Shown here in pieces: positions 2,885 through 34,763 of a stretch of DNA of 64,000 nucleotides. Within the stretch, counting starts at the first letter, position 1. Every line of letters starts with the position of its first letter. Position numbers and translations under genes: made by a program. The notes beneath the pieces were generated by a model. The model did not search any database. It was not told where the DNA came from and was given only the letters and a program-made list of their open reading frames with translations. The DNA is from Candidatus Omnitrophota bacterium (GTDB lineage: Bacteria; Omnitrophota; Gorgyraeia; Zapsychrales; Zapsychraceae), in assembly GCA_015232535.1 (NCBI GenBank), contig JADFZM010000001.1, positions 35,263-99,262 on the forward strand, given 5' to 3'.

Positions 2885-2897
2885 ATTTTATAAACCT

Positions 2898-8275: not shown

Positions 8276-8325
8276 TTTTATTAAATTGTTGAAATCGTTT
8301 ATATTGTTAAGCTGTTTGATCAAGG

Positions 8326-14122: not shown

Positions 14123-14132
14123 GTCAGTTAAT

Positions 14133-15323: not shown

Positions 15324-15335
15324 AATTAATTATTT

Positions 15336-15611: not shown

Positions 15612-15630
15612 TGATTCCCTTTCTAAGTGG

Positions 15631-15816: not shown

Positions 15817-15878
15817 TTTTCCTCCGTTATTAGTTTGTTTTAAACAATATCAACAATTTTTCAAGAACAAAAAAATTA

Positions 15879-17411: not shown

Positions 17412-17448
17412 GTCCTATCCTTCAGTTAATATTGTTGAATTTGTTTAA

Positions 17449-18036
17449 TCATTTTAACATCGGCGAATAAGGTATAGCCGGACCGAAGACCGGAGAACCG
17501 AGCTGCCAGCTACCTTTATTTGTGCCCATTAAAGGCCCGTATTGATAATCGAAGGGAATTGTTATGAATATCTTCTTCCCATCGCGATATACATCCAGGA
17601 AAATACCTCCGGAGTATTTCACATTATTAGCCAGGTCGGCAAAATCCTGGGCGGATTTTATAGGTTTTTGTCCGATGGAAACTATCACATCCCCTGATTT
17701 AATCCCGTACTTTTGAGCAGGGCCAAGGCCTTCGTCCAGTACAAGCACCCCTTTTATCTTTTTTGGAATTTTGAATTCTTTCCTTAAACTGCGGGAAAGA
17801 TATATCACATTCATACCGATCCAGTTCATACTATCGCCTGGTTCGATCAGAGTATTTTTAACGGCAGTTGTCGGTTCGGTTCGTTCAGGCGCTTCGGGAA
17901 TAATTTCTAAAGATGATAATATCCAGCAGAAGGCTATAATAGAGAAGATAACAATACCGACAAACATTACCGGTTCCTTTTTCGCGAATTCCTTAACCTT
18001 GATTTTAAAATTATTGAATTCTTTATTTTTTTTCAT
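17449..18036 (-). CDS. Membrane-anchored PDZ domain protein
   Basis: N-terminal TM, PDZ core (KGVLVLDEGLGPAQKYGIKSGDVIVSIGQKPIKSAQDFADL). Confidence 0.7.
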   Translation of the reverse strand: MKKNKEFNNFKIKVKEFAKKEPVMFVGIVIFSIIAFCWILSSLEIIPEAPERTEPTTAVKNTLIEPGDSMNWIGMNVIYLSRSLRKEFKIPKKIKGVLVLDEGLGPAQKYGIKSGDVIVSIGQKPIKSAQDFADLANNVKYSGGIFLDVYRDGKKIFITIPFDYQYGPLMGTNKGSWQLGSPVFGPAIPYSPMLK

Positions 18037-18039
18037 AGT

Positions 18040-19467
18040 TTATTGTATTTTTACCAGAATTTCGTCTGTTTTGCCGTTTCTTAATATTCTAACGTTTACC
18101 CCGTCTCCGCTTTTAAAGTGCGCGACTACATTCCTTATATCCTCGGCTGATTTAATTGGTACACCGGCTATAGCGACAACTATATCTCCCCTTTGTATCC
18201 CGGCGAAACTAGCCGGCGATTCGTCCAATACCCTATTTACCAAAACCCCTTTCCACGGAGATATTTTGAATTGCCGCGCGATTATCTCGTTTATAGGCAT
18301 AACTTCTAATCCGAAACGTACCGGAAGCGGCGCTCCGGGCGCGGGATTGGTTGTGGGCAAAGCCGCGGCCAGCATACCTTTTCTATCAACCGGAAGAGGG
18401 AAATTTCTTTTTAAAGCCTTTCCTAAGAAATCTTTGCAATCATTTATCGGAATAGCGAAACCTGTGCCGCTAAAAACACCGGTCGGAGCGTAAATTGCCG
18501 TATTAATGCCGATGACATCTCCGTTTAAGTCAACCAGCGGCCCACCCGATGAGCCGCGATTTATAGGAGCATCGGTTTGGAATAAATTTTGGTAACGGAT
18601 TCCTTCAATCAAGATCGATTTTCTTATCCCGCTAATGATACCGCTGGTGACGGTTTGCTCTATCCCGAAGGGGCTTCCAACGGCAACAACGTAATCGCCT
18701 ATTTGGCTGAAACTGGAATCGCCTAATTTTACCTCGGGGAACGGGCCGTCCGCTCTTAATTTTACGAGCGCTAAATCTAAATTCGGTTCCTCCGCTACGA
18801 TGTCTGCCCTTATATCGCGGGAGGGATTGCCAAAGACCGTAACTATAATATCGGTCGCGTCTTTTGTTACGTGATAATTAGTGAGCACGTAGCCGCGTTC
18901 ATCGATCACAATCCCTGCTCCGACATTTTCGTAACCTTTATTCTCGATGAATTTATCAATGGCACCGTCGAAGGGCGGAACAAATTGCATGTTTTGCGCA
19001 TCGGCAGGTTTCCTTATGTTCGTTCGAACAACCCTGATCGCGTGTATATCGCATACGGAAGGAATTATGGCGTTTACAGCATCTTTTAATGAATTTTGAA
19101 ACTTGCTATCGGTATTCGCGACTAACTGCATACCGCCGTTAGGAGTAGCTTTAGTTATTGCCGCGACTTTATAATTGGAAGACGGATTTTGATTTGGCTG
19201 ATAAGGAACACCTCCGTTAGGAAGAGCTTGGGTTATCGCCTGTGCCTGAGTATAGGCTGCTTGAGTGACCGGGGACGGAAATTGGGGCTCTCCTGCCTTT
19301 GGCATCTTGATTTTTGCCCTGGTATTTACAGTTTCGGTCTCAATTCCCTGGTTTATGTCTTCATGCCGCATTATTACCCAGAAAAGGAGCATAACCCCGA
19401 CTACGGCAAGCGCCGCAATCCAGGGCCCGAGAGGCTTTGTGCAAAATGAATCGTTAGGGTCTTCCAT
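18040..19467 (-). CDS. HtrA/DegP-family trypsin-like serine protease with C-terminal PDZ and N-terminal TM anchor (MamE-like)
   Basis: Intact catalytic triad: LTNYHV (His), DLALVKL (Asp), NRGSSGGPLVD (Ser); PDZ GIQRGDIVVAIAGVPI; no CxxCH in this polypeptide. Confidence 0.85.
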   Translation of the reverse strand: MEDPNDSFCTKPLGPWIAALAVVGVMLLFWVIMRHEDINQGIETETVNTRAKIKMPKAGEPQFPSPVTQAAYTQAQAITQALPNGGVPYQPNQNPSSNYKVAAITKATPNGGMQLVANTDSKFQNSLKDAVNAIIPSVCDIHAIRVVRTNIRKPADAQNMQFVPPFDGAIDKFIENKGYENVGAGIVIDERGYVLTNYHVTKDATDIIVTVFGNPSRDIRADIVAEEPNLDLALVKLRADGPFPEVKLGDSSFSQIGDYVVAVGSPFGIEQTVTSGIISGIRKSILIEGIRYQNLFQTDAPINRGSSGGPLVDLNGDVIGINTAIYAPTGVFSGTGFAIPINDCKDFLGKALKRNFPLPVDRKGMLAAALPTTNPAPGAPLPVRFGLEVMPINEIIARQFKISPWKGVLVNRVLDESPASFAGIQRGDIVVAIAGVPIKSAEDIRNVVAHFKSGDGVNVRILRNGKTDEILVKIQ

Positions 19468-22817: not shown

Positions 22818-25800
22818 TTAAGGGCAGTGTTTTCTGATAGAATCCCTGAGTTGCCTTAACTGGATGGGTTTAGCCAAGAGATCATTCATTCCTGAGTCAA
22901 AGCATTTTTGCTCGTCCATTCTTACTATTTCGGCCGTTAAGGCTATTATAGGCAAAGTTTTGTTGATATTATTACGGATAAATATAGTTGCTTCTATGCC
23001 ATCCATCTCCGGCATTTGAATATCCATAAAGCATATATCATAAGTCCCGGTCTTCACCTTTTCCACCGCTTCCCTGCCGTTAGTTGCATAATCCCCAATG
23101 CATTCCAAAGTATCTAGGTATGCCTTCATAAGCTCCTGATTTGTGATACTGTCATCCACAACAAGAACTTTCTTACCGGTGCAGGTTAGTTCATTCGCAA
23201 GATGCCGGGTAATAATTCCTTCATCTGTTCGCTTATCACCTAAAACAGTAGCGATAAGCTTTATTAGTTCATTTTCGATTATTGGTTTCGGCAAATAACC
23301 GTTAAATCCTGAGGATTTCGCGTCTTCGGCAGAGCCGATGCGCAAGTCAGATGTTAAAGCGATTATTTTTAAGCTATTAAATTGACCTAATTTTCTTATT
23401 TGTCTTGCCAGTTCGTAACCGTCATTGTCCGGCATCATAATATCGGTCAAAACCAAATCGATCTTAAATGGTTCATCTTTTATGGCATTGATAAAAGAAA
23501 TAGCATCCTCAACCGATGTTGCTGATTTAACAACTTCAATCCCGGCGTTTTGGCAATAAGTATTTACCAATTCCAGAGATTTTAAGTTATCATCAACAAT
23601 AACGGCTTTTTTCCCTTTAAGTTCTTTTATGCTAAGCGGCAAAATATCGTTATTAAATGATTCATCGGCTTGCTTAAAAGTCAATCTGATAAAGAATTCA
23701 CTGCCTTGTCCCAAGACAGATTCGGCCCAAACAGAGCCTCCCATTATTTTGACAAGCGAGCGCACAATGGCTAAGCCTAAACCGGTCCCTCCGAATTTAC
23801 GGGTGGTTGAAGTATCGGCTTGTTCAAAGGCATCAAATATCGTCTTTGTCTTGTCTTCAGGAATTCCTATCCCTGTATCTTTAACGCTTAATTTTAAAGT
23901 GATTTCGCCATTTTCTGTATTTCGGCTTTCTTCGCGAACGATAATGCCGACACTTCCGGCTTTTGTGAATTTAGCGGCATTAGTAAGAAGGTTTACAAAA
24001 ATCTGGCGTAATCTCGTAGGGTCGCCTTTAAGGAGGCAATTTAATTCTCGGGGAATATCAATATATGAGTCTAACAATTGTTCGCTCATTTTCGGTAATA
24101 TCAGGTGGAAAACATCTTTAATTAAGTAACGCAGGTCAAAATTAATGTTCTCCAGCTTTATCTTTTCCGATTCTATTTTGGAAAAGTTTAATATATCTTC
24201 GATTATGGCCAAAAGAAGTTCTCCTCCCGAGCGTATAGATTGGAGATAATGCCTTTGTTTTTCATCGATTGACGTCCTAGTCAAAAGGTCAGTAAAGCCG
24301 ATTATCGCGTTCATTGGGGTGCGGATTTCATGGCTCATATTTGCCAAGAATTCGGTCTTGGCTTTGGCTAATTTCTCGGACTTTTTGCTCGCCTCTTCAT
24401 ATTTGTCCCGGAGCGTTTCAGCTGTTTCCAGCGATTTCAGAAGATCATCATTTGCTTTCTTTAAAAGATTCTCCGATTTCTTTCTTTCCGATATATCACG
24501 TAAAATACCCACAGCCTGCCATTCCCCTGATAGGAATACCGAAGATAAGGAGAGGTCAACCGGTATTTCAGTGCCGTCTTTTTTAATGGCGGATAACTCA
24601 AGAGTTTTTCCTATGGCGAAACCTTTGCCGGAATTTTGCCATTGGGGAAAGGCCGCTTTATGCGCTTCATGAAATCGGGATGGAGATAATATTTCATGTA
24701 AAGGCTTGCCGATTATCTCATCTGGCTTATAACCTAAGATTTTTTCTCCGGCCGGATTCCAGAAGGAAACCAGGCCTTTATTATCCATCATTATAATCGC
24801 GTCTTGAGCTGAATCGGTTATAGAACGTATCCTCATCGAGCTTTCTTTTAACAGCTCTTCGTCTTTCTTCCTTTGGGTGATATTTTTTGCGATATGCACA
24901 GTCCCAATCACTTCTCCTTTGTCATCGAATATCGGAGAAACGTTTACTTCCAAAAACGCGTTTAATCTAGGTTCGAATATTTCCGAGGTGTTATGTGATT
25001 TATTTTCTAACGTTCTTACGTGCGGGCAAGCTGAATGTGGGTTTTCCAGCCCGTGAACTAAAACGTGGCATTTCTTGCCGATTACTTCTTTTGGCGTAAG
25101 ATTAAAGGCATCGGCATAAGCTTTGTTTACCCGTAGCAATCTGCATTCCTTATCCTGAATCGAAATCATATCCTGAATTGAGTTAAAGGTTTCTTCCCAT
25201 TCCCTGGATATTTTCTTAAGGCTTTTCTCCGCGAGCTGCCGGGAAGCGATTTCGGCATTTAAATTATTAATGGAGGTAACCGAATCTTTGAGGTCATTAG
25301 CCATTTTATTAAAAGCGCGGGATATTTGGCCAATCTCATCATTTGAATCGACTTTTATTTGATTGAAGAGCATTCCTGATGAGATTACCTCAATTCCCCG
25401 TTTTAGCTTTTGAAGTTGATTTGTAATTATTTTCCCCAAGAAAATACCGACGGCTAAAGCGGCAAAAGGTATAACCAAAAGGATCAAAAGTAAAATAAGC
25501 TGTATCTTTCTAAGCGGAGCAAAAGCTTCGCTTGTGTCGATCTCGGCTAAAAGGCACCATTTCATTTGCGTGTTCCACACATGGGTGCCTAAGGTCATGA
25601 CCCCGCGGTAATCTTCAGCAATAATTAGGCCTTCATGTTTATCATGAGAGTTTTTAAAAGTTGTTTCATGATCTTTATCCAAATCGGCCAAACATTGCCT
25701 AAAATTCGCGGTATTGACTTTTTGCTTTAGAAAAGCGCCTTTAATAAACCGCGAATTGCTTATCATGTAACCGTATTTATTTACTAAATAAGTTTCCCCC

Positions 25801-26405
25801 GTCTTGCCAAACCCGTATTCGTTTTTGAGTATGGTGTTAAGATAATCCATTTTGATTTCGGCTATAATAACCCCGAGCAACTCTCCGTCGGTACTATTCT
25901 TGATGGGGGCTGAAATAGCGATCATTGCCTCACGGATTCCCTCATGGGCATAGGGATGCTTTATGAAAGTCCCTTCCCGGGCCGCCAAAAAAGAGGAATC
26001 GGCTGAAATATCTTTGTTTAACATATTTTCGTCGGTTGAAAGGATAATTTTCCCGGTTGTGTCAGAAATATAGTAATCGTTTAAGTTGGTTATGGCATTG
26101 CGGTATTTTAAGAGGTCCTTTTGGGCGGTTATGAACATCTCTTGGCTTGATTGCGGGTCATTTTTGTATTTAAGGAGAAAGCCTTTTAATATTTCGTTTT
26201 CAGCTGACTGTATGACGCTTAAGCGAAGCATATCCAGATAAGATTTTACAGTTTGGTCTTTTGCGGCGACGGTATCTTTGAGGTGCTTTTTTACTTCATC
26301 TTTTAATGATCCTGTTACAATAACACATATGAAGGCAAGGGAGACGGTAGCCAGCACAAAGGCGGTGAAAAAGAAATATAGAGAGATCTTATTGGCTATT
26401 TTCAT
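22818..26405 (-). CDS. Hybrid sensor histidine kinase: periplasmic Cache-like sensor, HAMP, two PAS, HisKA, HATPase and two receiver domains
   Basis: TM-flanked N-terminal sensor; H-box FLANMSHEIRTPMNAI; G-boxes GTGLGLAI; receiver motifs TDIMMPDNDG and MDIQMPEMDG. Confidence 0.9.
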   Translation of the reverse strand: MKIANKISLYFFFTAFVLATVSLAFICVIVTGSLKDEVKKHLKDTVAAKDQTVKSYLDMLRLSVIQSAENEILKGFLLKYKNDPQSSQEMFITAQKDLLKYRNAITNLNDYYISDTTGKIILSTDENMLNKDISADSSFLAAREGTFIKHPYAHEGIREAMIAISAPIKNSTDGELLGVIIAEIKMDYLNTILKNEYGFGKTGETYLVNKYGYMISNSRFIKGAFLKQKVNTANFRQCLADLDKDHETTFKNSHDKHEGLIIAEDYRGVMTLGTHVWNTQMKWCLLAEIDTSEAFAPLRKIQLILLLILLVIPFAALAVGIFLGKIITNQLQKLKRGIEVISSGMLFNQIKVDSNDEIGQISRAFNKMANDLKDSVTSINNLNAEIASRQLAEKSLKKISREWEETFNSIQDMISIQDKECRLLRVNKAYADAFNLTPKEVIGKKCHVLVHGLENPHSACPHVRTLENKSHNTSEIFEPRLNAFLEVNVSPIFDDKGEVIGTVHIAKNITQRKKDEELLKESSMRIRSITDSAQDAIIMMDNKGLVSFWNPAGEKILGYKPDEIIGKPLHEILSPSRFHEAHKAAFPQWQNSGKGFAIGKTLELSAIKKDGTEIPVDLSLSSVFLSGEWQAVGILRDISERKKSENLLKKANDDLLKSLETAETLRDKYEEASKKSEKLAKAKTEFLANMSHEIRTPMNAIIGFTDLLTRTSIDEKQRHYLQSIRSGGELLLAIIEDILNFSKIESEKIKLENINFDLRYLIKDVFHLILPKMSEQLLDSYIDIPRELNCLLKGDPTRLRQIFVNLLTNAAKFTKAGSVGIIVREESRNTENGEITLKLSVKDTGIGIPEDKTKTIFDAFEQADTSTTRKFGGTGLGLAIVRSLVKIMGGSVWAESVLGQGSEFFIRLTFKQADESFNNDILPLSIKELKGKKAVIVDDNLKSLELVNTYCQNAGIEVVKSATSVEDAISFINAIKDEPFKIDLVLTDIMMPDNDGYELARQIRKLGQFNSLKIIALTSDLRIGSAEDAKSSGFNGYLPKPIIENELIKLIATVLGDKRTDEGIITRHLANELTCTGKKVLVVDDSITNQELMKAYLDTLECIGDYATNGREAVEKVKTGTYDICFMDIQMPEMDGIEATIFIRNNINKTLPIIALTAEIVRMDEQKCFDSGMNDLLAKPIQLRQLRDSIRKHCP

Positions 26406-26421
26406 TTTTACTTCTAATGAC

Positions 26422-27423
26422 CTAATTTTTGTAATAAAGAGAACGTAACAAGGAAGTGTTTATTGCCGTATCTGCCTTGGGAATAACGGGTATCCTTACG
26501 TTTTTATGTTTAATATCGCTAATAAAGTTAAATGCTTTTTCCCATTCCTTAAATTCCCGTTCCGAATTTTGATCTTCATAATTTAGCCATCTTAAGCCCA
26601 AAACTTGGGCCTGGTATTCTTCCGGCTTAAGGCCGTAATGCGGGGCGATTATCCGGGACGATTCAGCAGGGTTTTCTCGATAGTACTTTAATGATTTAAA
26701 CCAGCCGCGCATTAGCCTCATTGCAAGCTGAGGATTGTTTTTTATAATCTCGTTTCTAAAGCTTAATACGTCAATGATAACTCCGGGATTGTTTTTTGTG
26801 GTGACCAAAATGCGGCTCCCCTCTCTTTTTAAGCATAGAGAAAGGTTTGGCTCCCAGGTAACAACCGCATCCACTTCTTTTTCGGTAAATAGTTTTACAA
26901 TCTCTTCTGGCGATGTCGGAACACTGCTTATATCGTTTAGAGAAAGGCCATTTTCGTTGAAAACATAGGAAATAAACATCTCTCCAACATCATCCCGTAC
27001 AAGGCCGACTTTCTTACCTTTAAGGTCGAAGATGTTGTTGATGGTTCCATCGACAACGATACCGTCTGCGCCAAACGAATAATCAATTTCAAGCACCATG
27101 GTAATCGGTGTATCATAAGCCAATTTGGATACTAATAGATCTATAGTGCCGGCTTCGGCATCAAGCATCCCCTCTTTAAACGCTTCACGGCGCGCACTAT
27201 CCAGAGGTTCATCAACGATATTCAGGTCAATTCCCTCATCTTTAAAAATACCCAGTTCCTTCCCAAGGAAGAACGGCCCGTACCCGACCCATTTTTGAAA
27301 AGCTAAATTTACCATGTCGAGTTTCTTGGGAGGCGGATTATTATTGCAGCTCAAATTAAGAGACAAGAAAAACAATAAGACAGTTAGTACAATGAGAGGT
27401 TTTGAAAAGATATTTTTTATCAT
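26422..27423 (-). CDS. Periplasmic substrate-binding protein, NMT1/SsuA/TauA-like (ABC-type nitrate/sulfonate/bicarbonate family)
   Basis: Signal peptide then LAFQKWVGYGPFFLGKELGIF fold; 333 aa; immediately downstream of the hybrid kinase. Confidence 0.7.
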   Translation of the reverse strand: MIKNIFSKPLIVLTVLLFFLSLNLSCNNNPPPKKLDMVNLAFQKWVGYGPFFLGKELGIFKDEGIDLNIVDEPLDSARREAFKEGMLDAEAGTIDLLVSKLAYDTPITMVLEIDYSFGADGIVVDGTINNIFDLKGKKVGLVRDDVGEMFISYVFNENGLSLNDISSVPTSPEEIVKLFTEKEVDAVVTWEPNLSLCLKREGSRILVTTKNNPGVIIDVLSFRNEIIKNNPQLAMRLMRGWFKSLKYYRENPAESSRIIAPHYGLKPEEYQAQVLGLRWLNYEDQNSEREFKEWEKAFNFISDIKHKNVRIPVIPKADTAINTSLLRSLYYKN

Positions 27424-27434
27424 AGCTGTCCTGT

Positions 27435-27791
27435 TTATAAAGGTAATTCGGAAAAGTTTTTTGTTAACAAAGAAAAAAGCTCCTTTATTTCTTCAATCTT
27501 TTCTTGTTTTTTTGAAAGTTCATTTATTTGCATTGCCGGTTTGGAAATTGAGTCCAGGATCATATTGGCGAAGCTTCCCTTCATCCGGTGAGAGATAGTC
27601 TGAATTTTGGGGAAATCAACCTTGGCTATCGCTTCTTCTAAAGCCGAAATGTCTTTTTTTCCCTCGACGAGGCACAGCTTGGCTATTTTCAGGTAAGCTT
27701 GCGGAGGTATTTGAAGTTGGTTGCTATTTTTTATTACCAGCTGTTCATAATCATTTTTATTTGTGTAATTATTTTTTGTCTCATCGTTCAT
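27435..27791 (-). CDS. Histidine phosphotransfer (Hpt) domain protein
   Basis: ISHRMKGSFANM phospho-His motif in a 118 aa all-helical protein. Confidence 0.7.
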   Translation of the reverse strand: MNDETKNNYTNKNDYEQLVIKNSNQLQIPPQAYLKIAKLCLVEGKKDISALEEAIAKVDFPKIQTISHRMKGSFANMILDSISKPAMQINELSKKQEKIEEIKELFSLLTKNFSELPL

Positions 27792-27818
27792 CTTGAAATC
27801 CTTGTTAAATAATTAAAA

Positions 27819-28601
27819 TTAGAAAAACCTTAAATATTTTCGGCATAAGCCGGTTATGAAAATAGGAATAAGGAAAATGCCGGTAAACTCCTGAAAAACA
27901 GCCAGGACTTTATTAAAACCTACAGGCAGTATATCGCCGTACCCTATTCTAGTTACCGTGATATAGCTAAAATAAATTGCCTCCATAAAACTTGGTTTTC
28001 GCACTATGTTGGTGAAAACAAGATGGCCTTGATTGTAAAATATTGCTGAAAAAAGGATAAGGAAACCACCGAATATAATAGTCCTTTGCGGCCGCTCTCC
28101 GTGGCCCCAAAGAAGCGAAGAAAAAGTTAAGGATATCCATGTAAAGAACCGCTTAAAAGCGGTTTTGAAATTGGGTCCTTTGGTTTTAGTTCCGAAAGGA
28201 GTATGCCGGACCCAAAATTTAAGGTTAGGAGTGAGGGATTTTCTGTAACATTCCTGGGAGAGGAAAAAACATTCCGAGAAGCCGACATAGCCCAGGTCCC
28301 TTTCGTGGCAGATACCGGCATGTTTGTAAAGCATGCTGGCATATTCGTAATCGCCTGATTTCTCCGCTTCCTGGGCCCCTTTTTCATAATAAGAGGCGGC
28401 ATAATAATATAGGGATTGACGGCCCGCTTTGAATTCACAACAGCTGGCGGCGGAGGTAAAACAAATAGCGGACTGCTTATGTTCGCCCGATTCCTGAAAA
28501 GACCTGGCCGCTTCAGAAAATAATTTTGCCGCATCGTCAAATTTTTGCTCATCAAGAAGCTTTTGAGCTTCTTTTTCTATTGCTTTAATGTCGCTGATCA
28601 T
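27819..28601 (-). CDS. Two-TM potassium channel with N-terminal cytoplasmic helical (TPR-like) domain
   Basis: Pore helix plus selectivity filter TVTRIGYGD; two flanking TM helices. Confidence 0.75.
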   Translation of the reverse strand: MISDIKAIEKEAQKLLDEQKFDDAAKLFSEAARSFQESGEHKQSAICFTSAASCCEFKAGRQSLYYYAASYYEKGAQEAEKSGDYEYASMLYKHAGICHERDLGYVGFSECFFLSQECYRKSLTPNLKFWVRHTPFGTKTKGPNFKTAFKRFFTWISLTFSSLLWGHGERPQRTIIFGGFLILFSAIFYNQGHLVFTNIVRKPSFMEAIYFSYITVTRIGYGDILPVGFNKVLAVFQEFTGIFLIPIFITGLCRKYLRFF

Positions 28602-28627: not shown

Positions 28628-28912
28628 CTATTTCTTTTTTATCGTTTTTGAAGCGAACCCGAATGATTTTCCAAGGGAGAACATGATTTGGTCAAGGTAA
28701 TTCTGACTATTAGAGGGCTTAGGGGTGCTTCTTGTTAATTGTTTCGTTTTCTTTATTATTATCGGAGTTGCCTTAGAAGCCTGTTTGCGTATTTTCTTTA
28801 AACGCCGCATTACCGCATTAATTTTCCTGGCCTTAGTGCTTTTTGAAGATGAGGCGGATACATTAACAGCTTTGATCTTGCCAAGCTTCTTTTTTCTTTT
28901 TTTTGCTGTCAT
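28628..28912 (-). CDS. Lys/Arg-rich small protein with conserved C-terminal motif ILGKSFGFxS; paralog of 31188-31457
   Basis: Ends FSLGKSFGFASKTIKKK; the paralog ends YILGKSFGFVSGSLKIKQK. Confidence 0.5.
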   Translation of the reverse strand: MTAKKRKKKLGKIKAVNVSASSSKSTKARKINAVMRRLKKIRKQASKATPIIIKKTKQLTRSTPKPSNSQNYLDQIMFSLGKSFGFASKTIKKK

Positions 28913-28958
28913 TATCTCTCTCCTTTTATCTCTTGCTTTATTATGCTCTGTTCCAATA

Positions 28959-28989
28959 AAATTGTTTAAATTGTTTAAATTGTTTAAAC
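28959..28989. repeat. Tandem 10 bp repeat (ATTGTTTAAA x3) in the intergenic region between the actin-like gene and the small basic gene
   Basis: aattgtttaaattgtttaaattgtttaaaca read directly; 10 bp period equals one helical turn. Confidence 0.8.
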
Positions 28990-28990
28990 A

Positions 28991-30196
28991 TTATTTAGCT
29001 TTGGAACGGCTTAATAGCTGAGAGTTTATCAGGCAACCTTTTGAAACGCAATTAAAAGGGTCTTTGGCTTGTCTAATTTCGTTTATGGGAACCACCATAT
29101 CGATGTTCTTAATTTCCTGTTTTACAACATCTAGGAATCCTCCGACCATTGATGTGCCACCGGCGAAAACAATGTCTATCGGCTCATCGAACTGAGGCGC
29201 TTTATCCGGGCGACGGAAAACTTGAGAAATTTGCCCTAGGAAATAACGGATGTAGTTTTTGTAAAACAGGGCTATTGCTTCTTGCTCCCTTGTTTCCGGT
29301 TTTAAAATGCTCATCCCCTTTTCCTTAACCAAGCCGGCTTTGTTCGGAGATATGCTTAGCACATTCGAAGACTGGAGGTCTATCATATCGCCTCCTTGCG
29401 CTATCGAAAATTCCATTACGACAACCGATTTATAAGCGACGCATATATTTGTCATGCCGCCGCCGCAAGATACCCCAATACCGGTGAACTTCTTCTCCGC
29501 AAGTTCGGATAGTATTACCGCAAAGCCTTCGTTTATCGGACATACTTTGTAGCCGAAACAGGAAAGCATCGTTTCGATAACATTCCGGTGATAATTAACG
29601 TCCATCATGCTGTCCACCGGTTGCGCCGGAACGCAGAAACAGCATATCTCGTTAGGGACTCTCGGTTCCCACAATAAACCCTTCACTATCATATTCATTA
29701 TAGGTATTGCTTCGCGTTCCAACGGATTAATAACTCCCACGTTCATCGGCCTTTGGGTGTTGCGGTCAAAATAATTCGAGAAATCGAAAGCGTCTTTGCC
29801 TAGGATGCAAGGCCTTTCTTTTATCCTTTGCTCGGATATGTTCATTTTCTGCAAAAGTTCTTTGGTTGAGTCATCATCGCGGACAAAAAGAAACGCGTTA
29901 CGGCTATATTTTACCTCTACACCCTTTGCTGTTTCGCGGGAAGAAACGATGTTGGCGGTTCCCATATCAAGGCCGACGCCTAATAAATTAATGTCAGTAT
30001 CAACATCCCCGCTTTGGGAAGGTATTTGAGCAACATCATTTTGGGAGGGGATTTGCGCTTTCTCAACGATAGTCCGGGGTTTTGAAGGCTGGCGGCGGTC
30101 TACAGCATGAATCGCTTTTTTAATTGGTTTTTTATTCTTAAGTTTCTTATTGATCGTTTTTTTTGGCATTGGTCTTTTTCTTTCTTCTAAAGGCAT
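28991..30196 (-). CDS. Actin-like ATPase (MamK/MreB/ParM superfamily)
   Basis: Phosphate-1 loop LGVGLDMGTANIV, GIGVSCGGGMTNI, adenosine motif DIVFAGGTSMVGGF; basic low-complexity N-terminal extension. Confidence 0.75.
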   Translation of the reverse strand: MPLEERKRPMPKKTINKKLKNKKPIKKAIHAVDRRQPSKPRTIVEKAQIPSQNDVAQIPSQSGDVDTDINLLGVGLDMGTANIVSSRETAKGVEVKYSRNAFLFVRDDDSTKELLQKMNISEQRIKERPCILGKDAFDFSNYFDRNTQRPMNVGVINPLEREAIPIMNMIVKGLLWEPRVPNEICCFCVPAQPVDSMMDVNYHRNVIETMLSCFGYKVCPINEGFAVILSELAEKKFTGIGVSCGGGMTNICVAYKSVVVMEFSIAQGGDMIDLQSSNVLSISPNKAGLVKEKGMSILKPETREQEAIALFYKNYIRYFLGQISQVFRRPDKAPQFDEPIDIVFAGGTSMVGGFLDVVKQEIKNIDMVVPINEIRQAKDPFNCVSKGCLINSQLLSRSKAK

Positions 30197-31181
30197 TTTC
30201 AGCGATCGCGCCTATAAGGCAACCGCGGGCAATTGCGTACAAAGGGTCATCGGCCAGAAAGACATTATTGATTTGAACGGGGAATTTTGTTTTCTCGATC
30301 TCACTTTTCAATATTTGGGTAAATCCTGTCGGAAGGGCTGTCCCTCCGGCGCATACGATCTCAATGGGCTTTTTAAAAACCGATCCCATAGATTTTTCTT
30401 CCAGCCTGGCGCGCAGGCATTGTACGGCATAACGAATAAGCTCTTTGTAATATATCGTTATTGCTTTCTGGGTTCTGTCTTGAGGGTTTTTAAGGTTTAT
30501 CCCTTTTTCTTTAACAGAATTGACTTGGCCCTGGCGTATGGCAAGGGCTTTGGCGGCATTTTCGTCTATCCAGTCTCCGGCACGGTTAATGGAAAAACTA
30601 TCGAGTGAATTAGCCCTATCGCTTACGCAAAAATTAAGCATTCCACAGCCGCAGGAAATCCCTATACCGGTAAAGCCGAATTCGGCCAAACTGCTATATA
30701 CGACAGCCATCCCTTCATTAACCGACTTAGCCTTGTAACCTAAAGACTCAATGATCTCCTCTAAAATACCCGTGTGATAGACGACGCGGAATTCATTTAT
30801 AAAAGCTTCGGCCGGAATAGAGTAATAACAAATAGAATTGTTCTCGGAAGCTTTGCCTAAAAGGGCGGTTACGAGTATTTTAAGAATAATCTCGGCTTTT
30901 TCTTCTTTTGGATTAAGGACTCCGTCCTGCATCGGACGGCTTAGGGCAGAACCCATCGTATTAGCCATTTTGTAAGCAGATTCCGCTAAGATGTATAACT
31001 CTTCTCCGATTTCGGCGTATTGCATCCCTTCTTCTTTCAAGAACGAGGTCATTGATTGCTCGATCTTTACTTTTAGAAAGGCATGGCGCAGTTTCTTTAA
31101 AACAATTTTTTCATCTTGAGAAAGGGAAGCGCTGATAAGGTTCATTGTCCCTATATCAATGCTTTTTATTTCTTTTATCAT
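30147..31181 (-). CDS. Actin-like ATPase (MamK-like), second tandem paralog
   Basis: IKSIDIGTMNLIS, GIGISCGCGMLNF, IEIVCAGGTALPTGF motifs. Confidence 0.75.
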   Translation of the reverse strand: MIKEIKSIDIGTMNLISASLSQDEKIVLKKLRHAFLKVKIEQSMTSFLKEEGMQYAEIGEELYILAESAYKMANTMGSALSRPMQDGVLNPKEEKAEIILKILVTALLGKASENNSICYYSIPAEAFINEFRVVYHTGILEEIIESLGYKAKSVNEGMAVVYSSLAEFGFTGIGISCGCGMLNFCVSDRANSLDSFSINRAGDWIDENAAKALAIRQGQVNSVKEKGINLKNPQDRTQKAITIYYKELIRYAVQCLRARLEEKSMGSVFKKPIEIVCAGGTALPTGFTQILKSEIEKTKFPVQINNVFLADDPLYAIARGCLIGAIAENAFRRKKKTNAKKNDQ

Positions 31182-31187
31182 AAATGG

Positions 31188-31457
31188 TTACTTTTGTTTT
31201 ATTTTTAACGAGCCGGATACAAAGCCGAATGATTTTCCCAGAATGTAAAAAAATCTGCTTAAAATGCCCTTTTGGCCTCTTGTTTCAGATTCTATTTCGA
31301 TTTCATCATTTATTTTTTGGGCAACAGGCGTTTTAACTTTTTTTAGTTTATGCGAGCTAGCCTCTACCTCGAAGGATTTTATCGTCTTAGTCGGAATATC
31401 CTCCAGATGCACGATTGGGGGGTTATCTTGCTTTGGGGAATTATTAGTTTCAGACAT
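31188..31457 (-). CDS. Small protein paralogous to 28628-28912 (shared C-terminal ILGKSFGF motif), acidic N-terminal half
   Basis: C-terminus GILSRFFYILGKSFGFVSGSLKIKQK; 7 nt upstream of the actin-like gene. Confidence 0.5.
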   Translation of the reverse strand: MSETNNSPKQDNPPIVHLEDIPTKTIKSFEVEASSHKLKKVKTPVAQKINDEIEIESETRGQKGILSRFFYILGKSFGFVSGSLKIKQK

Positions 31458-31488: not shown

Positions 31489-31908
31489 TTATTTAAACTT
31501 TTCCGATACTTTTTTCAGTAATTTATCGTTTTCGAATGGCTTAAGGATGTAATCATCGCAACCGGAGTCAAAAGCATCCAGCCAGGGCTCTTTTGATGCG
31601 GTAAGCATAATTATGGGTATCGAACTGCCATAACCGTACTTTATCCCTCGCGACTCTTCTTCTTTTCTGATATTCTTTAAGACTTCCAAGCCGTTTATCC
31701 CGGGCATATTGATATCCAGGATTATCAGCTGAAAATGATTATCTTTTATTGATTTAAGGTAGGTTGAAATCCCTTCTTCTCCGTCGGATACGCCGGTTAT
31801 TTCATAGCCTTCTTTTTCAAGAGTTTTCTGGACAAGAGTCCTTGTCCCCCGATCATCTTCAATGACTAGAATTCTTTTAGGCATTTTACACCCTCTCTTT
31901 TGAGCCAT
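31489..31908 (-). CDS. Stand-alone response regulator receiver (CheY-like)
   Basis: KRILVIEDD ... LIILDINMPGINGLEVLKNIRK ... KP motifs. Confidence 0.85.
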   Translation of the reverse strand: MAQKRGCKMPKRILVIEDDRGTRTLVQKTLEKEGYEITGVSDGEEGISTYLKSIKDNHFQLIILDINMPGINGLEVLKNIRKEEESRGIKYGYGSSIPIIMLTASKEPWLDAFDSGCDDYILKPFENDKLLKKVSEKFK

Positions 31909-32000: not shown

Positions 32001-32336
32001 TCAGCTTAGTTCTTTTAATGCGGTTTCACGATTATCATGGATTGAGATCATCTTATGCATTTTTGTTATTTCAAAAATGCCGCGGATTTCTTTGTTTACG
32101 TTGCAGATGTTGAATTTACCGTTAGCTTTTTTTAGCATTTGCGTCATTTCGATTAATGTTGCCAAGCCGGAACTGCCGACAAAGCCGACTTTCTCAAAAT
32201 CAACAATCACTTTGCTGGCACCGGCTTTAAGCAATTTAATAAACGAATCCCTTAGCTTTATGGAATCTTCAACGTTGAGCTCTCCGTCAAGCGCTACAAC
32301 ATTGATCCCGTTAATCAAATCAACTTTAATTTTCAC
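32001..32336 (-). CDS. STAS-domain anti-sigma-factor antagonist (RsbV/SpoIIAA-like)
   Basis: LDGELNVEDS ... VDFEKVGFVGSSGLATLIEM with phosphorylatable Ser. Confidence 0.85.
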   Translation of the reverse strand: MKIKVDLINGINVVALDGELNVEDSIKLRDSFIKLLKAGASKVIVDFEKVGFVGSSGLATLIEMTQMLKKANGKFNICNVNKEIRGIFEITKMHKMISIHDNRETALKELS

Positions 32337-32749
32337 TTCTCCTCCTTTTTCTTGTTGAGGAATTTAACCATTTTAATGGTTCGCCCCTCATTCATGAACT
32401 CAAATTTATCCATGATTTTCTCTATCAGGAATATCCCCCGTCCGCTTAGCCTCTCTAAGTTCTTTGAGGTTAGAGGGTTAGGTATATTCTTATAGTCGAA
32501 ACCTGTTCCCTCATCAGACACCTGCATGATCAAATTTCCGTTTTGAATATTTATTTCCAATTTTACTTTAAGGTCGGGATTAAGCTTATTGCCGTGCTTG
32601 ACCGCATTGACCATCGCCTCATAAAGGGCCAGTTTGATATTAAAAATAGCTCCCGGGTCCAGGCCGATGTCAGAAAGCTTAGCCAGCACCGAAGAAAGCA
32701 ATTCGTTTATCAATTCAGTTTTCGAGGGTATGGTTTTTGATATATTCAT
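32333..32749 (-). CDS. Anti-sigma regulatory factor / serine kinase (RsbW/SpoIIAB-like, HATPase_c)
   Basis: EAMVNAVKHGN ... SDEGTGFD ... GRGIFLI motifs; 4 nt overlap with the STAS gene. Confidence 0.8.
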   Translation of the reverse strand: MNISKTIPSKTELINELLSSVLAKLSDIGLDPGAIFNIKLALYEAMVNAVKHGNKLNPDLKVKLEINIQNGNLIMQVSDEGTGFDYKNIPNPLTSKNLERLSGRGIFLIEKIMDKFEFMNEGRTIKMVKFLNKKKEEK

Positions 32750-32828
32750 GTCGAATCTCTTAATTTAAAATAATTTTATACATATTACCAAATTAACCCA
32801 AATATGTAAAAGGATAAGTTGGCGAATT

Positions 32829-34763
32829 TCAGGATATTTTAATTACAATGTATGTTATGTCATCCGATTGCTTATGCTGCGGCTCGAATTTGCGTATGTC
32901 TTTTTCTATAGCCAGCGATATTTCCTGGGCTGTTTTGTTCCTGTTTTTATCGATAACCGAGAAAAGGCGTTCTTTACCGTATAATTTCGAGCGTGAATCC
33001 CTGGCTTCGGTAATGCCGTCAGTATAGAAAATAAATATGTCTCCTTTGGAAAATTTTACGCTGTTTCCGGAATACGCGCTTTCCGTCATGCCCAAAGGAT
33101 AGCCGTCTTCAACATCAAGGAGTTGCCCCTGGGCGCTTCGGGAAAGATGCAGTACGGGAAGATGCCCTCCGTTGGCGTAATTCATGATTTTCTTTTCTGT
33201 GTCAAAAATCGCGTAAAAGATCGTGACGAATAAATTGCTGGAAGATTCTTTTCTTAGTTTTTCGTTTAAGCTGTAAAGGACTTGCTGAGGAGGGGCATCG
33301 GGTAAAGCAAAGAATTTAAACGATCCGGAAACTGTTGTCATAAATAAGCTGGCCGGTATGCCTTTACCCGAAACATCACCGATCATGACCCCTAATGTCG
33401 TCGGGGTGAACTCGTAAAAGTCGTATAAATCCCCGCCCACTTGCCGGGCGGTGAGAATCTTGGCGGCTATATCCATATTATTAGTTCGGGGAAGTATTTT
33501 AGGAAGGAAGCTTTCCTGGATTTTTTTAGCGATCAAAAGCTCATTCTCGAAAAGTATTTTCTTCCTCCATTCGATTACCGATATCATAAGCGCACCGATT
33601 AAGTAAAGAAAAGGCAAGGCAATTAAGGGATAAAACATATCTATCCATACACCGAATAATATAAAAAGCAGAAATGCCGTGAAAAAATAAAGCGTAACGG
33701 TTAAGATGAGAATACCGAAAGCCTTGTTTGGTTTTCCGGCAAATATTCCCCAGGAAATAAAAGAAGCAAAAACAATTAAAAGAAACAAGTTAAATTCTTT
33801 CGGAGCGCGCGTTATAAATCGCCTGTTGATAATAGAATTGATAAGATCAGCGTGAATGGCCAAAGCCGGATACAGCGAGGAAAACGGCGTGGGATGTAGA
33901 TCGGTTGTACCCGTCGCTGTCAACCCTATGATGCATATTTTGTCTTTAAAAAAATTTGGGTCCAAAAATGGTTTTTCCCCTGATCGAATTGAGGCATATG
34001 AGCGCAGGATATCGACAAAGGAATAGTGCTTATAGAATTTCCCCCATTCACCGGCATAATTAACAATGGAGTTTGATTCTTTATCCAAAGGGATTTTAAC
34101 ATATCGGCCCAGGCGAATATATTTGCCGGGTCTATAAATAATATCCTTTTGATCGATTCCAAGATAATCTGAAACTAAGCGCAGGGATACATACGGAACG
34201 ATTTCTTCATTATATTTGATCAAAAGCGGCACTTTGCGGTATTTTCCGTCCGGGTCAGGGATGATATTTATGGGCCCGGCCCCTTTGGAAACTGTATTAA
34301 AAAAAGCCAGGTTTTGCGCGTTAAAACCCTTGGCAATTAAGATATTTTGTCCTTTACTCGAGTCAAGGTCAAAAACGTAGGGTAAATACACATTTCCAGC
34401 CTCTTTTATCGCTTTCTCCATTTCAGCGTCGTTTTGGTCACTTTCCGAGAAGAAAATATCAAATAAAACCGCTTTTGCACCGTATTCTGATAGAACTTTA
34501 ATGAGTAGCGAATGATAACGGCGGTCAAAGGGGAAACGGCCAAGCTTTTTTATCGAGTCATCGGCTATTTCAACAATTACAACTTTTTCGGTGGTTTTTA
34601 TCGGCGGGCGCAGGCGAAACCGCAGATCGAGCATGTTCAGTTCATTTACTTCAAAAACCCTAAGATAAGATCCGTATACTACAATGACAGCCGCAAAAGA
34701 GAAAATAATAACAAGCAGGAAGTTTTGAATGGATATCCAGGAAAAGTTTAACAGTTTTTTCAT
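32829..34763 (-). CDS. CHASE2 sensor fused to PP2C/SpoIIE-type serine phosphatase (RsbU-like)
   Basis: N-terminal TM, extracytoplasmic CHASE2, three TM helices, C-terminal PP2C block (GGDLYDF ... GDVSGKGIPASLFM ... YTDGITEA). Confidence 0.8.
   Translation of the reverse strand: MKKLLNFSWISIQNFLLVIIFSFAAVIVVYGSYLRVFEVNELNMLDLRFRLRPPIKTTEKVVIVEIADDSIKKLGRFPFDRRYHSLLIKVLSEYGAKAVLFDIFFSESDQNDAEMEKAIKEAGNVYLPYVFDLDSSKGQNILIAKGFNAQNLAFFNTVSKGAGPINIIPDPDGKYRKVPLLIKYNEEIVPYVSLRLVSDYLGIDQKDIIYRPGKYIRLGRYVKIPLDKESNSIVNYAGEWGKFYKHYSFVDILRSYASIRSGEKPFLDPNFFKDKICIIGLTATGTTDLHPTPFSSLYPALAIHADLINSIINRRFITRAPKEFNLFLLIVFASFISWGIFAGKPNKAFGILILTVTLYFFTAFLLFILFGVWIDMFYPLIALPFLYLIGALMISVIEWRKKILFENELLIAKKIQESFLPKILPRTNNMDIAAKILTARQVGGDLYDFYEFTPTTLGVMIGDVSGKGIPASLFMTTVSGSFKFFALPDAPPQQVLYSLNEKLRKESSSNLFVTIFYAIFDTEKKIMNYANGGHLPVLHLSRSAQGQLLDVEDGYPLGMTESAYSGNSVKFSKGDIFIFYTDGITEARDSRSKLYGKERLFSVIDKNRNKTAQEISLAIEKDIRKFEPQHKQSDDITYIVIKIS

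What the first reader, a model, noticed from the sequence alone, without database searches (positions are those of the whole stretch)
28628..31457. Two tandem MamK-like actin genes, each adjacent to a paralogous small basic protein sharing a C-terminal ILGKSFGF motif
The gene order is small protein A, actin A, actin B, small protein B. Both actins have complete phosphate-1/2 and adenosine motifs; actin B has a long basic N-terminal extension. The two small proteins differ in their low-complexity N-halves (acidic versus Lys-rich) but end in nearly identical LGKSFGF(A/V)S..K(K/I)K tails. That suggests a shared interaction surface, for example filament docking analogous to MamJ/MamY. The perfect 10 bp tandem repeat lies in the intergenic gap of this module, and a REC-only protein lies just upstream.
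Basis: partly seen in the sequence, partly recalled or inferred. Interest (0 to 1): 0.65.

Follow-up and report, generated by a model that had tools for sequence, protein, structure and literature searches.

The report
Response-regulator-linked volactin-type actin pair operon
A magnetotactic Omnitrophota bacterium carries, beside its magnetosome genes, a conserved operon that encodes a signal-receiver protein, two divergent actin-like proteins of the archaeal "volactin" family (not MamK) and small tail-motif proteins, which looks like a new, regulated bacterial cytoskeletal module.

Summary
The genes are real, all on the minus strand: REC (31489-31908), small A (31188-31457), actin A (30147-31181), actin B (28991-30196), a 78-nt gap holding a 9-bp x3.3 repeat (not 10 bp), and small B (28628-28912).

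Both actins are full-length members of Pfam Volactin (PF25216; 248 and 240 bits, cut-off 35). They are 31-33% identical to haloarchaeal homologues. They fail the MamK model (24 and 18 bits, cut-off 400).

The order REC-small A-actin A-actin B recurs in at least six other Omnitrophota genomes or contigs; four come from magnetotactic-bacteria studies and GWA2_45_18 has a reported magnetosome cluster. Small A has orthologues in all of them, with three conserved blocks ending in an amphipathic small-xxx-small helix. Small B is a full-length paralogue found only here.

The pair probably arose by duplicating an older short+long volactin-like pair. In these genomes that older pair sits in a conserved FeoAB-HEAT-ParA cluster with related tail-motif proteins.

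The window holds mam genes; the nearest ends 9 kb from small B.

My inference: a phospho-regulated two-actin filament system with membrane or cargo adaptors, possibly acting on magnetosome or cell organisation.

Not tested or not shown: the relation to Mad28 (no reference sequence was reachable) and adaptor docking (one fused-chain fold gave no confident interface).

The parts
31489..31908 (-). Single-domain response regulator (CheY-like REC), first gene of the operon.
   Evidence: Pfam Response_reg E 2e-25. Orthologues at 54-72% identity lie directly upstream of the small A gene in L001/L092, L003, L004, L009 and L011. A promoter-like site sits at 31965->31937, matching 10 of 12 positions.
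31188..31457 (-). Small A: an 89-aa protein with a conserved N-terminal K.VHL..IPTK block, a short A+AL+RL helix, a variable linker and a C-terminal amphipathic small-xxx-small helix (GILSRFFYILGKSFGFVSGSL).
   Evidence: Orthologues occupy the same position in L001, L003, L004, L009, L011 and, partially, L007. No Pfam or NCBIfam hit. The tail has muH 0.46, H 0.79 and net charge +3. AF2 predicts the tail as a helix, at low confidence.
30147..31181 (-). Actin A: the short (344 aa) Volactin-family actin-fold ATPase.
   Evidence: PF25216 E 1.8e-73, covering model positions 3-321 of 321. The AF2 model has pLDDT 90 and an actin fold. It is 31-33% identical to haloarchaeal homologues. Orthologues are 52-66% identical.
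28991..30196 (-). Actin B: the long Volactin-family actin, with a Lys-rich N-terminal extension. The ORF is 401 aa; the NCBI start at 30169 gives 392 aa. It overlaps the 3' end of actin A by 23-50 nt.
   Evidence: PF25216 E 6e-71. The actin domain starts at residue 70. Orthologues are 55-73% identical and always follow actin A.
28959..28988 (.). Perfect 9-bp tandem repeat, TTTAAACAA x3.3 on the minus strand, in the 78-nt gap between actin B and small B. It overlaps a promoter-like site (28968->28940).
   Evidence: The 9-mer is not clustered anywhere else in the window. No other module has a small B gene, so none has this gap.
28628..28912 (-). Small B: a 94-aa, very basic (pI 12) full-length paralogue of small A, specific to this lineage.
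   Evidence: It scores 105 bits against an HMM of the small-protein family, though it was one of the sequences the HMM was built from. It aligns in all three blocks. AAGGAG lies 8 nt upstream of the ATG. No counterpart follows actin B in L001, L003, L004, L007, L009, L011 or L093.
32001..34763 (-). Upstream partner-switching genes: CHASE2-PP2C phosphatase (32829-34763), RsbW-like kinase (32333-32749) and STAS protein (32001-32336).
   Evidence: Pfam hits. In L011 a CHASE2-PP2C gene (50% identity) lies immediately upstream of REC, and an RsbW-like gene (42%) immediately downstream of actin B.
22818..28601 (-). Downstream neighbours: TPR/K+-channel fusion (27819-28601), Hpt (27435-27791), NMT1-type binding protein (26422-27423) and a dCache-HAMP-PAS hybrid histidine kinase with two REC domains (22818-26405). 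These could supply a phosphorelay to REC.
   Evidence: Pfam hits. The same NMT1 + dCache kinase pair lies near the second-type actin pair in L006. That these genes belong to the module is an inference.

Best explanation
Shown:
- The locus is an operon, REC - small A - actin A - actin B (- small B).
- It encodes two divergent actin-fold ATPases of the Volactin family (Pfam PF25216), the family named after Haloferax volcanii volactin. They are not MamK.
- The four-gene order is conserved in a narrow group of Omnitrophota. Most of these genomes come from magnetotactic-bacteria studies.
- Small A is a conserved protein with an N-terminal peptide block and a C-terminal amphipathic, Gly/Ser-zipper helix. 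Small B is a duplicate found only here.

Inferred:
1. The short and the long actin work together, either as a co-polymer or as a filament plus a modulator. They are always adjacent, often with overlapping reading frames, and both keep the nucleotide-binding residues.
2. The CheY-like REC protein couples assembly or anchoring to phosphorylation. The signal would come from the flanking Hpt/hybrid-kinase genes and the CHASE2-PP2C/RsbW/STAS genes.
3. The small proteins are adaptors. Their cationic amphipathic tail would bind a membrane (cytoplasmic or magnetosome) or a groove on a partner, and the N-terminal block would bind the other side.
4. The cellular task is positioning or organising magnetosome chains or cell architecture in these bacteria. 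The module is probably an extra, diverged copy of an older volactin-like pair that these genomes carry in a FeoAB-HEAT-ParA cluster.
For: Family:
- PF25216 scores 248 and 240 bits against a cut-off of 35, over the full model length.
- tblastn gives 31-33% identity over 94% of the protein to haloarchaeal genes, E about 1e-56.
- The shared FTG(I/L)G(I/V)S.G.GM.N.C motif is seen in all 119 family sequences examined, including two haloarchaeal homologues. The published HVO_2015 motif starts with the same FTG-LGV but keeps the Asp.

Fold:
- AF2 pLDDT 90; Foldseek matches MreB and MamK.

Operon:
- Gaps of 31 and 6 nt, then an overlap, with no terminator-like site on the coding strand.

Conservation:
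- REC-small-A-B is found in L001/L002/L092, L003=L008, L004=L010, L009 and L011. L007 starts inside the small gene.
- REC is as conserved as the actins, at 54-72% identity.

Signalling link:
- CHASE2-PP2C and RsbW-like genes flank the module both here and in L011.
- A REC-domain protein follows actin B in L003, L004 and L009, with CheX after it in L004.

Small proteins:
- Three conserved blocks.
- The tail has muH 0.43-0.53, H 0.45-0.79 and charge +2/+3, comparable with the FtsA and MinD membrane-targeting helices computed alongside.
- The tail is predicted helical.
- The same tail motif occurs in two or three small proteins per second-type cluster and in no Planctomycetota locus.

Link to magnetotaxis:
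- The window carries MamQ/A/B/M/P/E-like genes and magnetochrome domains.
- The closest homologues come from MAGs of magnetotactic-bacteria surveys, and from GWA2_45_18, which is reported to carry a magnetosome gene cluster.
- Among GTDB species representatives, the 80 best loci included only 21 from Omnitrophota, in 18 genomes. Thirteen of those genomes come from those surveys.

Origin:
- Actin B is sister to the long type of the second pair. Actin A is closest (44% identity) to the short type.
Against: - No experiment exists for any bacterial member of the family.
- None of the orthologous modules in other genomes has a mam gene within 10 kb. The proximity seen here (9 kb to the MamE-like gene) may be incidental. 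The association with magnetotactic MAGs may reflect shared ancestry rather than function.
- The fused actin A-small A fold gave no confident interface; small A stayed at pLDDT 33-50.
- The phosphate-2 Asp is replaced by Ser. The effect on ATP hydrolysis is unknown.
- In the NJ tree actin A sits on a long basal branch rather than with the short type, so the 'duplicated pair' history is not secure.
- Co-polymerisation, control by REC and membrane binding are all inferences from gene order and sequence properties.
Confidence: 0.5

Rival explanations
1. A general cytoskeletal system for cell shape, polarity or division, as volactin is for shape in Haloferax. It would have no specific role in magnetosome organisation, and its place next to mam genes in this genome would be coincidental.
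For: - Volactin acts in the rod-to-disk shape transition (PMC10869688).
- Related single or paired genes are widespread in Planctomycetota MAGs.
- Orthologous modules elsewhere lie next to housekeeping genes (pyruvate dehydrogenase, LptFG, FtsJ), not mam genes.
Against: - Within Omnitrophota the family appears only in a small set of genomes, dominated by MAGs from magnetotactic-bacteria surveys.
- The second pair sits with FeoB, FeoA/DtxR and HEAT-repeat proteins. In D. magneticus RS-1 the HEAT-repeat protein Mad23 works in magnetosome chain organisation (PMC12748827).
- Here the module lies between mam genes and feoB/fur.
Confidence: 0.3
2. A ParMRC/AlfAB-like DNA segregation cassette. The actins would push DNA apart. 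The small basic proteins would be ParR-like adaptors that bind the 9-bp repeats (the centromere) with their N-termini and the filament with their C-terminal helix.
For: - The parts resemble such a cassette: actin genes plus small proteins of about 90 aa with a conserved C-terminal helix.
- Small B has pI 12, and actin B has a Lys-rich tail.
- A perfect repeat array lies just upstream of small B.
- Salactin, another haloarchaeal actin, aids DNA partitioning (PMC10869688).
Against: - No plasmid context. The contig carries chromosomal and magnetosome genes.
- No bacterial plasmid among 72,556 records encodes a relative.
- The array holds only three 9-mers and occurs once.
- The repeat and small B are absent from all other modules.
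- Neither small protein shows a DNA-binding domain hit.
- The conserved partner is a response regulator.
Confidence: 0.08
3. One reading: two MamK paralogues, each with its own MamJ/MamY-like docking protein, forming part of the magnetosome chain machinery.
For: - MamK is the closest solved structure by sequence profile (5ljw, E 2e-9, 40 bits). It is among the best fold matches (TM 0.68-0.71).
- Magnetosome genes lie in the window.
Against: - The MamK family model scores 24 and 18 bits against a cut-off of 400.
- Identity to MamK is 18%.
- Pfam assigns both proteins to Volactin.
- A MamK accession from an Omnitrophota MAG ('Calbin1') appears in the sequence table of PMC10653835, so these organisms appear to have a separate MamK.
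- Small B is not conserved.
- No confident docking was predicted.
Confidence: 0.05

Closest known systems
Volactin (VolA, HVO_2015) of Haloferax volcanii, Pfam PF25216
   Same: - Same Pfam family at full length, far above the cut-off.
- 31-33% identity to haloarchaeal homologues.
- Shared FTG-(I/L)G phosphate-2 context and GGT adenosine motif.
- In Haloferax a receiver-only response regulator (HVO_2012) and a small zinc-finger protein (HVO_2014) are neighbours of volA by locus tag.
   Different: - Bacterial rather than archaeal.
- Always a short+long gene pair in Omnitrophota.
- Tightly linked to REC and a tail-motif protein.
- Lys-rich tails.
- Ser instead of the Asp that the paper's motif table shows for HVO_2015 in phosphate 2.
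- Function untested.
MamK (magnetosome actin; PDB 5ljw, 5ljv, 5jyg)
   Same: - Actin fold.
- Best PDB sequence-profile hit and a top fold match.
- Encoded in a magnetotactic bacterium.
   Different: - About 18% identity.
- Fails the NCBIfam MamK model by a wide margin.
- Different phosphate-2 motif.
- Different gene context.
Mad28 (second actin-like protein of deep-branching magnetotactic bacteria)
   Same: - An actin-like protein other than MamK, reported for magnetotactic Desulfobacterota, Nitrospirota and Omnitrophota and often encoded away from the core cluster (PMC10653835, PMC12713370, PMC9840458).
- The second-type pair sits with HEAT-repeat proteins, and in RS-1 the HEAT-repeat protein Mad23 belongs to the same chain-organisation network as Mad28.
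   Different: - No Mad28 sequence could be obtained, so homology is untested.
- Mad28 is described as keeping only three of five ATP-binding motifs. These proteins keep phosphate 1, connect 1 and adenosine, plus most of phosphate 2.
- No REC or tail-motif partner is described for Mad28 in the passages read.
ParMRC / AlfAB actin-based plasmid segregation
   Same: Actin-like ATPase plus a small adaptor protein with a C-terminal helix, and short direct repeats nearby.
   Different: - Chromosomal.
- No relative on bacterial plasmids.
- No DNA-binding domain detected.
- The repeats are minimal and not conserved.
- Two actins and a response regulator.
C-terminal amphipathic membrane-targeting helices of FtsA and MinD
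   Same: The small-protein tail has a similar hydrophobic moment and positive charge and is predicted helical.
   Different: - The helix sits on a separate small protein, not on the filament-forming protein.
- It carries a conserved aromatic-xx-G-xxx-(G/S) pattern, which also fits helix-helix packing.
- Membrane binding is untested.

Membership tests
Volactin family (Pfam PF25216) | Full-length match to the family HMM above the curated cut-off. | tested here: met
   Actin A scores 248.3 bits (protein 6-325, model 3-321 of 321). Actin B scores 240 bits (74-390). The cut-off is 35.
Volactin family (Pfam PF25216) | Direct sequence similarity to haloarchaeal members. | tested here: met
   tblastn gives 31-33% identity over 93-94% of actin A, E 2e-57 to 3e-56, to Haloarcula, Halogeometricum and Natrinema genes. 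HVO_2015 itself was not available. Its published motifs were compared by eye.
Volactin family (Pfam PF25216) | Dynamic filament formation in vivo. | not testable with these tools
   Shown only for Haloferax volactin (PMC10869688).
MamK | Match to the NCBIfam MamK subfamily model NF040964 above its cut-off. | tested here: not met
   24.3 bits (actin A) and 18.3 bits (actin B) against a cut-off of 400.
MamK | Canonical phosphate-2 motif (D-x-G-x-G-T-T-D). | tested here: not met
   MamK IVDIGAGTTDIC aligns to GISCGxGMxNxC. Asp is replaced by Ser, and TD by xN.
Mad28 | Sequence homology to Mad28 of D. magneticus RS-1, D. magnetovallimortis BW-1 or Ca. Magnetobacterium. | not testable with these tools
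   No Mad28 sequence is held in any reachable source. The paper supplements hold only images and accession numbers. The AFDB library was unavailable.
Mad28 | Encoded in or near the magnetosome gene cluster of a deep-branching magnetotactic bacterium. | tested here: inconclusive
   Here small B starts 9 kb from the end of the MamE-like gene. The orthologous modules elsewhere have no mam gene within 10 kb.
ParM/AlfA plasmid segregation systems | Encoded on plasmids or phages, with close relatives there. | tested here: not met
   Only five haloarchaeal megaplasmid records among 72,556 plasmids match, plus two jumbo-phage records.
ParM/AlfA plasmid segregation systems | Centromere made of multiple iterons next to the genes, and a DNA-binding adaptor. 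| tested here: not met
   There is a single array of 3.3 x 9 bp, not conserved and not repeated elsewhere. Neither small protein has a DNA-binding domain hit. DNA binding itself was not tested.
MreB | Match to MreB family models above their cut-offs. | tested here: not met
   - Pfam MreB_Mbl: 18.2 bits for actin A. Actin B scores 28.3 bits, nominally just above the cut-off of 27, but only as a partial match (model positions 59-182 of 327).
- NCBIfam MreB models: at most 25.7 bits against cut-offs of 293 and 366.

The most novel reading that the evidence does not exclude
Magnetotactic Omnitrophota use volactin-type actins, not only MamK, as a phospho-switchable two-subunit filament system. Dedicated tail-anchored adaptors (the small A/B family) would tie these filaments to magnetosome or cell membranes. 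On this reading, the REC - small protein - volactin gene logic is ancient and shared with haloarchaea (HVO_2012/2014/2015). The 'Mad28'-type actins of deep-branching magnetotactic bacteria would then be bacterial volactins, linking an archaeal shape cytoskeleton to bacterial organelle positioning.
Probability: 0.2. Interest if true: 0.75.

Novelty: new variant of a known kind. Interest (0 to 1): 0.55.

Why it matters
Volactin has been studied only in one archaeon, and its partners and regulators are unknown. This locus gives a bacterial branch of the family a fixed gene context: a response regulator, a conserved small adaptor-like protein and an obligate short+long actin pair. That context yields direct, testable candidates for how such filaments are controlled and anchored.

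It also adds up to four actin-like genes, beyond MamK, to the inventory of magnetotactic Omnitrophota. Chain organisation in these uncultured bacteria is not understood. If the link to Mad28 holds, one family would connect archaeal cell-shape control and bacterial organelle positioning.

If the module proves to be a general cytoskeleton, it is still the first described operon logic for bacterial volactin homologues in the literature I could search.

Tried and rejected
- Exact look-up of the window's own proteins (actin A, and P0136 from the same contig) found no record, so the contig left of the window could not be read.
- Getting a Mad28 reference sequence failed. The supplements of PMC10653835 and PMC12713370 hold only images, identity tables and primers for a synthetic gene. 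Cluster look-ups of ten distant homologues returned no informative names.
- Foldseek against AFDB50 was not available on the machine.
- Co-folding was blocked or uninformative.
  - An unpaired alignment on a triple fusion was unusable, because MAFFT stacked all homologues on the actin B half.
  - The one accepted run (actin A + small A, with no alignment for the small part) gave no confident interface.
- The first metagenome scan, with exact actin B peptides, found nothing. The second, with an alignment, found only three orthologous contigs.
- Pfam and NCBIfam found nothing for either small protein.
- A 5.8-billion-protein search with the small-protein alignment returned only 19 hits, all unnamed Omnitrophota proteins.
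- I rejected the repeat as a centromere or regulatory array of note.
- I rejected actin B's marginal, partial MreB_Mbl hit as a family assignment.
- A literature search for UBA10174, to learn whether non-survey MAGs are magnetotactic, found nothing.


Full report
WHAT IS IN THE SEQUENCE. All genes of the finding lie on the minus strand.
- REC: 31908-31489.
- Small A: 31457-31188, 89 aa.
- Actin A: 31181-30147, 344 aa.
- Actin B: 30196-28991, a 401-aa ORF. The NCBI record starts it at Met-10, giving 392 aa.
- A 78-nt gap.
- Small B: 28912-28628, 94 aa.

The spacing fits one transcript: 31 nt, then 6 nt, then a 23-50 nt overlap. No terminator-like site lies on the coding strand. A promoter-like site lies upstream of REC, and a weaker one lies inside the gap before small B. 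The repeat in that gap is TTTAAACAA x3.3. Its period is 9 bp, not 10, and the 9-mer is not clustered anywhere else in the window.

FAMILY OF THE ACTINS.
- Both proteins match Pfam Volactin (PF25216) over the whole model: E 1.8e-73 and 6e-71, 248 and 240 bits, cut-off 35.
- The NCBIfam MamK model gives 24 and 18 bits against a cut-off of 400. MreB models score about as poorly.
- tblastn against 72,556 plasmids finds only five haloarchaeal megaplasmid records, at 31-33% identity over 94% of the protein, E about 1e-56. No bacterial plasmid matches.
- Two jumbo-phage records also carry homologues.
- An AF2 model of actin A (pLDDT 90) is a regular actin fold. Its best solved matches are MreB/Mbl, MamK (TM 0.68-0.71, 18% identity) and BeeR.
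- MamK is the best PDB hit to the family profile, but only at 40 bits.
- The MamK alignment and a 119-sequence family alignment show which catalytic residues are kept. Phosphate-1 D-x-G-T, the connect-1 Glu (E156) and the adenosine GG remain. The phosphate-2 Asp is Ser in every member examined (FTGIGISCGxGM.N.C).
- The published motif table for Haloferax volactin shows the same FTG-LGV context but with Asp.
- So "MamK-like" is true of the fold only. The family is Volactin.

SOURCE AND CONTEXT.
- The exact proteins are HQL27_00380, HQL27_00375 and HQL27_00385 of a 'Candidatus Omnitrophica bacterium' MAG, on a 112.8-kb contig.
- The window carries a magnetosome gene cluster:
  - MamQ (101-805), MamA (844-1689) and two CDF transporters (1931-3788);
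  - a MamP-like protein (14133-15323) and a second magnetochrome protein (15879-17411);
  - a PDZ protein and a MamE-like protease (17449-19467).
- A haem-biosynthesis block splits this cluster.
- FeoB and Fur lie at 36.6-39.7 kb.
- The operon therefore sits between mam genes and iron genes. Its last gene, small B, begins 9 kb from the end of the MamE-like gene.

CONSERVATION OF THE MODULE.
- The order REC - small protein - short actin - long actin recurs in these places:
  - GWA2_45_18-type contigs (L001/L002/L092);
  - Cal1bin1 (L003=L008);
  - nHGRbin18 (L004=L010);
  - ELA581 (L009);
  - nXXbin4 (L011);
  - nCal2bin1 (L007), truncated at the contig start. It holds three tandem actins.
- Cal1bin1 and the n-prefixed MAGs come from surveys of magnetotactic bacteria. 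GWA2_45_18 is reported to hold a nearly complete magnetosome cluster (PMC5955933, PMC7602337).
- Identities to the window are 54-72% for REC, 52-62% for actin A and 55-73% for actin B.
- None of these loci has a mam gene within 10 kb.
- A JGI metagenome scan found only three orthologous contigs, so the module is rare.
- In L011 a CHASE2-PP2C gene precedes REC and an RsbW-like gene follows actin B. The window has CHASE2-PP2C, RsbW-like and STAS genes just upstream of REC.
- In L003, L004 and L009 a 259-aa REC-domain protein follows actin B, with CheX after it in L004.

THE SMALL PROTEINS.
- Small A orthologues share three blocks:
  - an N-terminal K.VHL..IPTK block;
  - a short A+AL+RL helix;
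  - after a variable linker, a C-terminal [KR]G(F/I)L...(F/Y)..G+..(G/S)..... tail.
- Small B aligns in all three blocks, so it is a full-length paralogue. At the DNA level the two 3' ends share 45 nt at 71% identity.
- No other module has a small B. It is a recent, lineage-specific duplicate, and with it the repeat-bearing gap.
- The tail is strongly hydrophobic and amphipathic, with net charge +2/+3 (muH 0.43-0.53, H 0.45-0.79). This is the range I computed for the FtsA and MinD membrane-targeting helices. It also carries a small-xxx-small pattern.
- A fused actin A-small A AF2 run predicted the tail as a helix. It left the whole small protein at pLDDT 33-50, so it gave no support for docking on actin A. 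The run had no alignment for the small part and is weak evidence either way.
- A search of 5.8 billion proteins with the family alignment returned 19 unnamed Omnitrophota proteins with no Pfam domain.

A SECOND, OLDER PAIR.
- The same genomes (nHGRbin18, Cal1bin1, ELA581, and HQL27 via HQL27_00055) and a dozen further Omnitrophota MAGs carry another short (~330 aa) + long (460-540 aa) Volactin pair. Its members are 43-45% identical to actin A and 43-51% to actin B.
- The two clusters read in full (L087, L088) share this order: FeoB - FecR - FeoA/DtxR - HEAT - x - HEAT - small - x - HEAT - x - small - ParA/MipZ - x - short actin - long actin - x - x - sensor kinase. L005 is a looser variant.
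- The small proteins in that cluster carry the same tail motif. The motif is absent from all Planctomycetota loci.
- In a neighbour-joining tree, actin B orthologues are sister to the long type. Actin A orthologues form a long branch near the base, although by identity they are closest to the short type.
- The simplest reading is that the whole pair was duplicated and then diverged quickly. I hold that as likely, not shown.
- Planctomycetota MAGs carry single or paired relatives at about 40% identity.

HOW IT MOST LIKELY WORKS (inference).
- The strict adjacency and frequent overlap of a short and a long paralogue, both with intact nucleotide-binding residues, suggest they act together.
- The response regulator is as conserved as the actins and always comes first. 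Variable signalling genes surround the module (partner-switching proteins, Hpt and hybrid kinase, a REC-domain protein and CheX). This points to control of assembly or anchoring by phosphorylation.
- The small proteins look like adaptors with two binding ends. A cationic amphipathic tail fits membrane binding, and a helix-packing role is equally possible.
- Three observations suggest a role in magnetosome or cell organisation. None of them is proof:
  - the restriction to genomes that are mostly from magnetotactic-bacteria surveys;
  - the iron and HEAT-repeat context of the sister pair;
  - the position inside this genome's magnetosome region.

RIVALS.
- A general shape or polarity cytoskeleton fits the Haloferax precedent and the housekeeping neighbours in other genomes. 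I give it 0.3.
- A ParMRC-like segregation cassette fits only superficially. I give it 0.08.
- Membership of MamK is contradicted by the family model.
- Whether these proteins are what the literature calls Mad28 in Omnitrophota could not be tested, because no Mad28 sequence was reachable.

VERDICT.
- The family label is wrong: Volactin, not MamK.
- The one-adaptor-per-actin idea is not conserved.
- The conserved unit is a REC-adaptor-actin-actin operon. That operon has not been described in the literature I could search; of the 14 listed volactin papers, none has a title or abstract start about bacterial volactin homologues.
- It is a new variant of a known kind, of moderate interest.

Noticed in passing
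window 101-19467: The core magnetosome gene cluster (MamQ, MamA, two CDF MamB/M, a MamP-like protein, a 510-aa magnetochrome protein with a Nitro_FeMo-Co domain, a PDZ protein, MamE-like) is interrupted by a block of haem genes. The block holds NirDL-like AhbA/B, two radical-SAM/SPASM enzymes, HemB, a HemL-like aminotransferase, a sirohaem synthase fragment and a cytochrome c assembly protein. Haem supply for magnetochromes may be built into the island.
   Followed up: partly
window 27819-28601 (minus strand): A 260-aa protein fuses a TPR-like N-terminal half to a two-helix K+ channel pore (Ion_trans_2, TRIGYGD filter). It starts 26 nt downstream of small B. No counterpart lies next to the other modules.
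   Followed up: partly
L091 4986-6005 (LR756511.1, a 595-kb uncultured phage); also LR745208.1: Two jumbo-phage records each encode a single Volactin-family homologue, 34-36% identical to actin A over 92-93% of its length. These may be phage-borne cytoskeletal genes of this family.
   Followed up: no
window 30147-30196: The 3' end of actin A and the 5' end of actin B overlap by 23-50 nt, and both reading frames encode Lys-rich tails. In Cal1bin1, nHGRbin18 and ELA581, actin A carries a long Arg/Lys/Pro-rich C-terminal tail as well.
   Followed up: partly
Haloferax volcanii HVO_2012-HVO_2015 (supplement of PMC10869688): By locus tag, volactin (HVO_2015) neighbours a receiver-only response regulator (HVO_2012), CetZ5 (HVO_2013) and a small zinc-finger protein (HVO_2014). 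Some small tail-motif proteins in the Omnitrophota second-type clusters also have Cys-rich N-termini. This may be shared gene logic across domains.
   Followed up: no
L087 192-18461 and L088 169-18113: In the two clusters read in full, a conserved cluster of about 20 genes (FeoB, FecR, FeoA/DtxR, three HEAT-repeat proteins, two tail-motif small proteins, ParA/MipZ, short and long volactin-like actins, two unknowns) recurs in the same order. It is probably the chain-organisation part of the Omnitrophota magnetosome island. The window's contig has a member of it (HQL27_00055) outside the window.
   Followed up: partly
L094 69-960: Upstream of an actin B orthologue on a metagenome contig lie two ORFs: a 76-aa ORF with two copies of the tail motif, and a 208-aa protein with an HTH-like N-terminus that ends in the tail motif. 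The tail seems to be a portable module.
   Followed up: no
L007 229-3333: nCal2bin1 has three tandem volactin-like genes (A, B and a second B-type copy, 50% identical to actin B). Duplication in this module appears to be ongoing.
   Followed up: no
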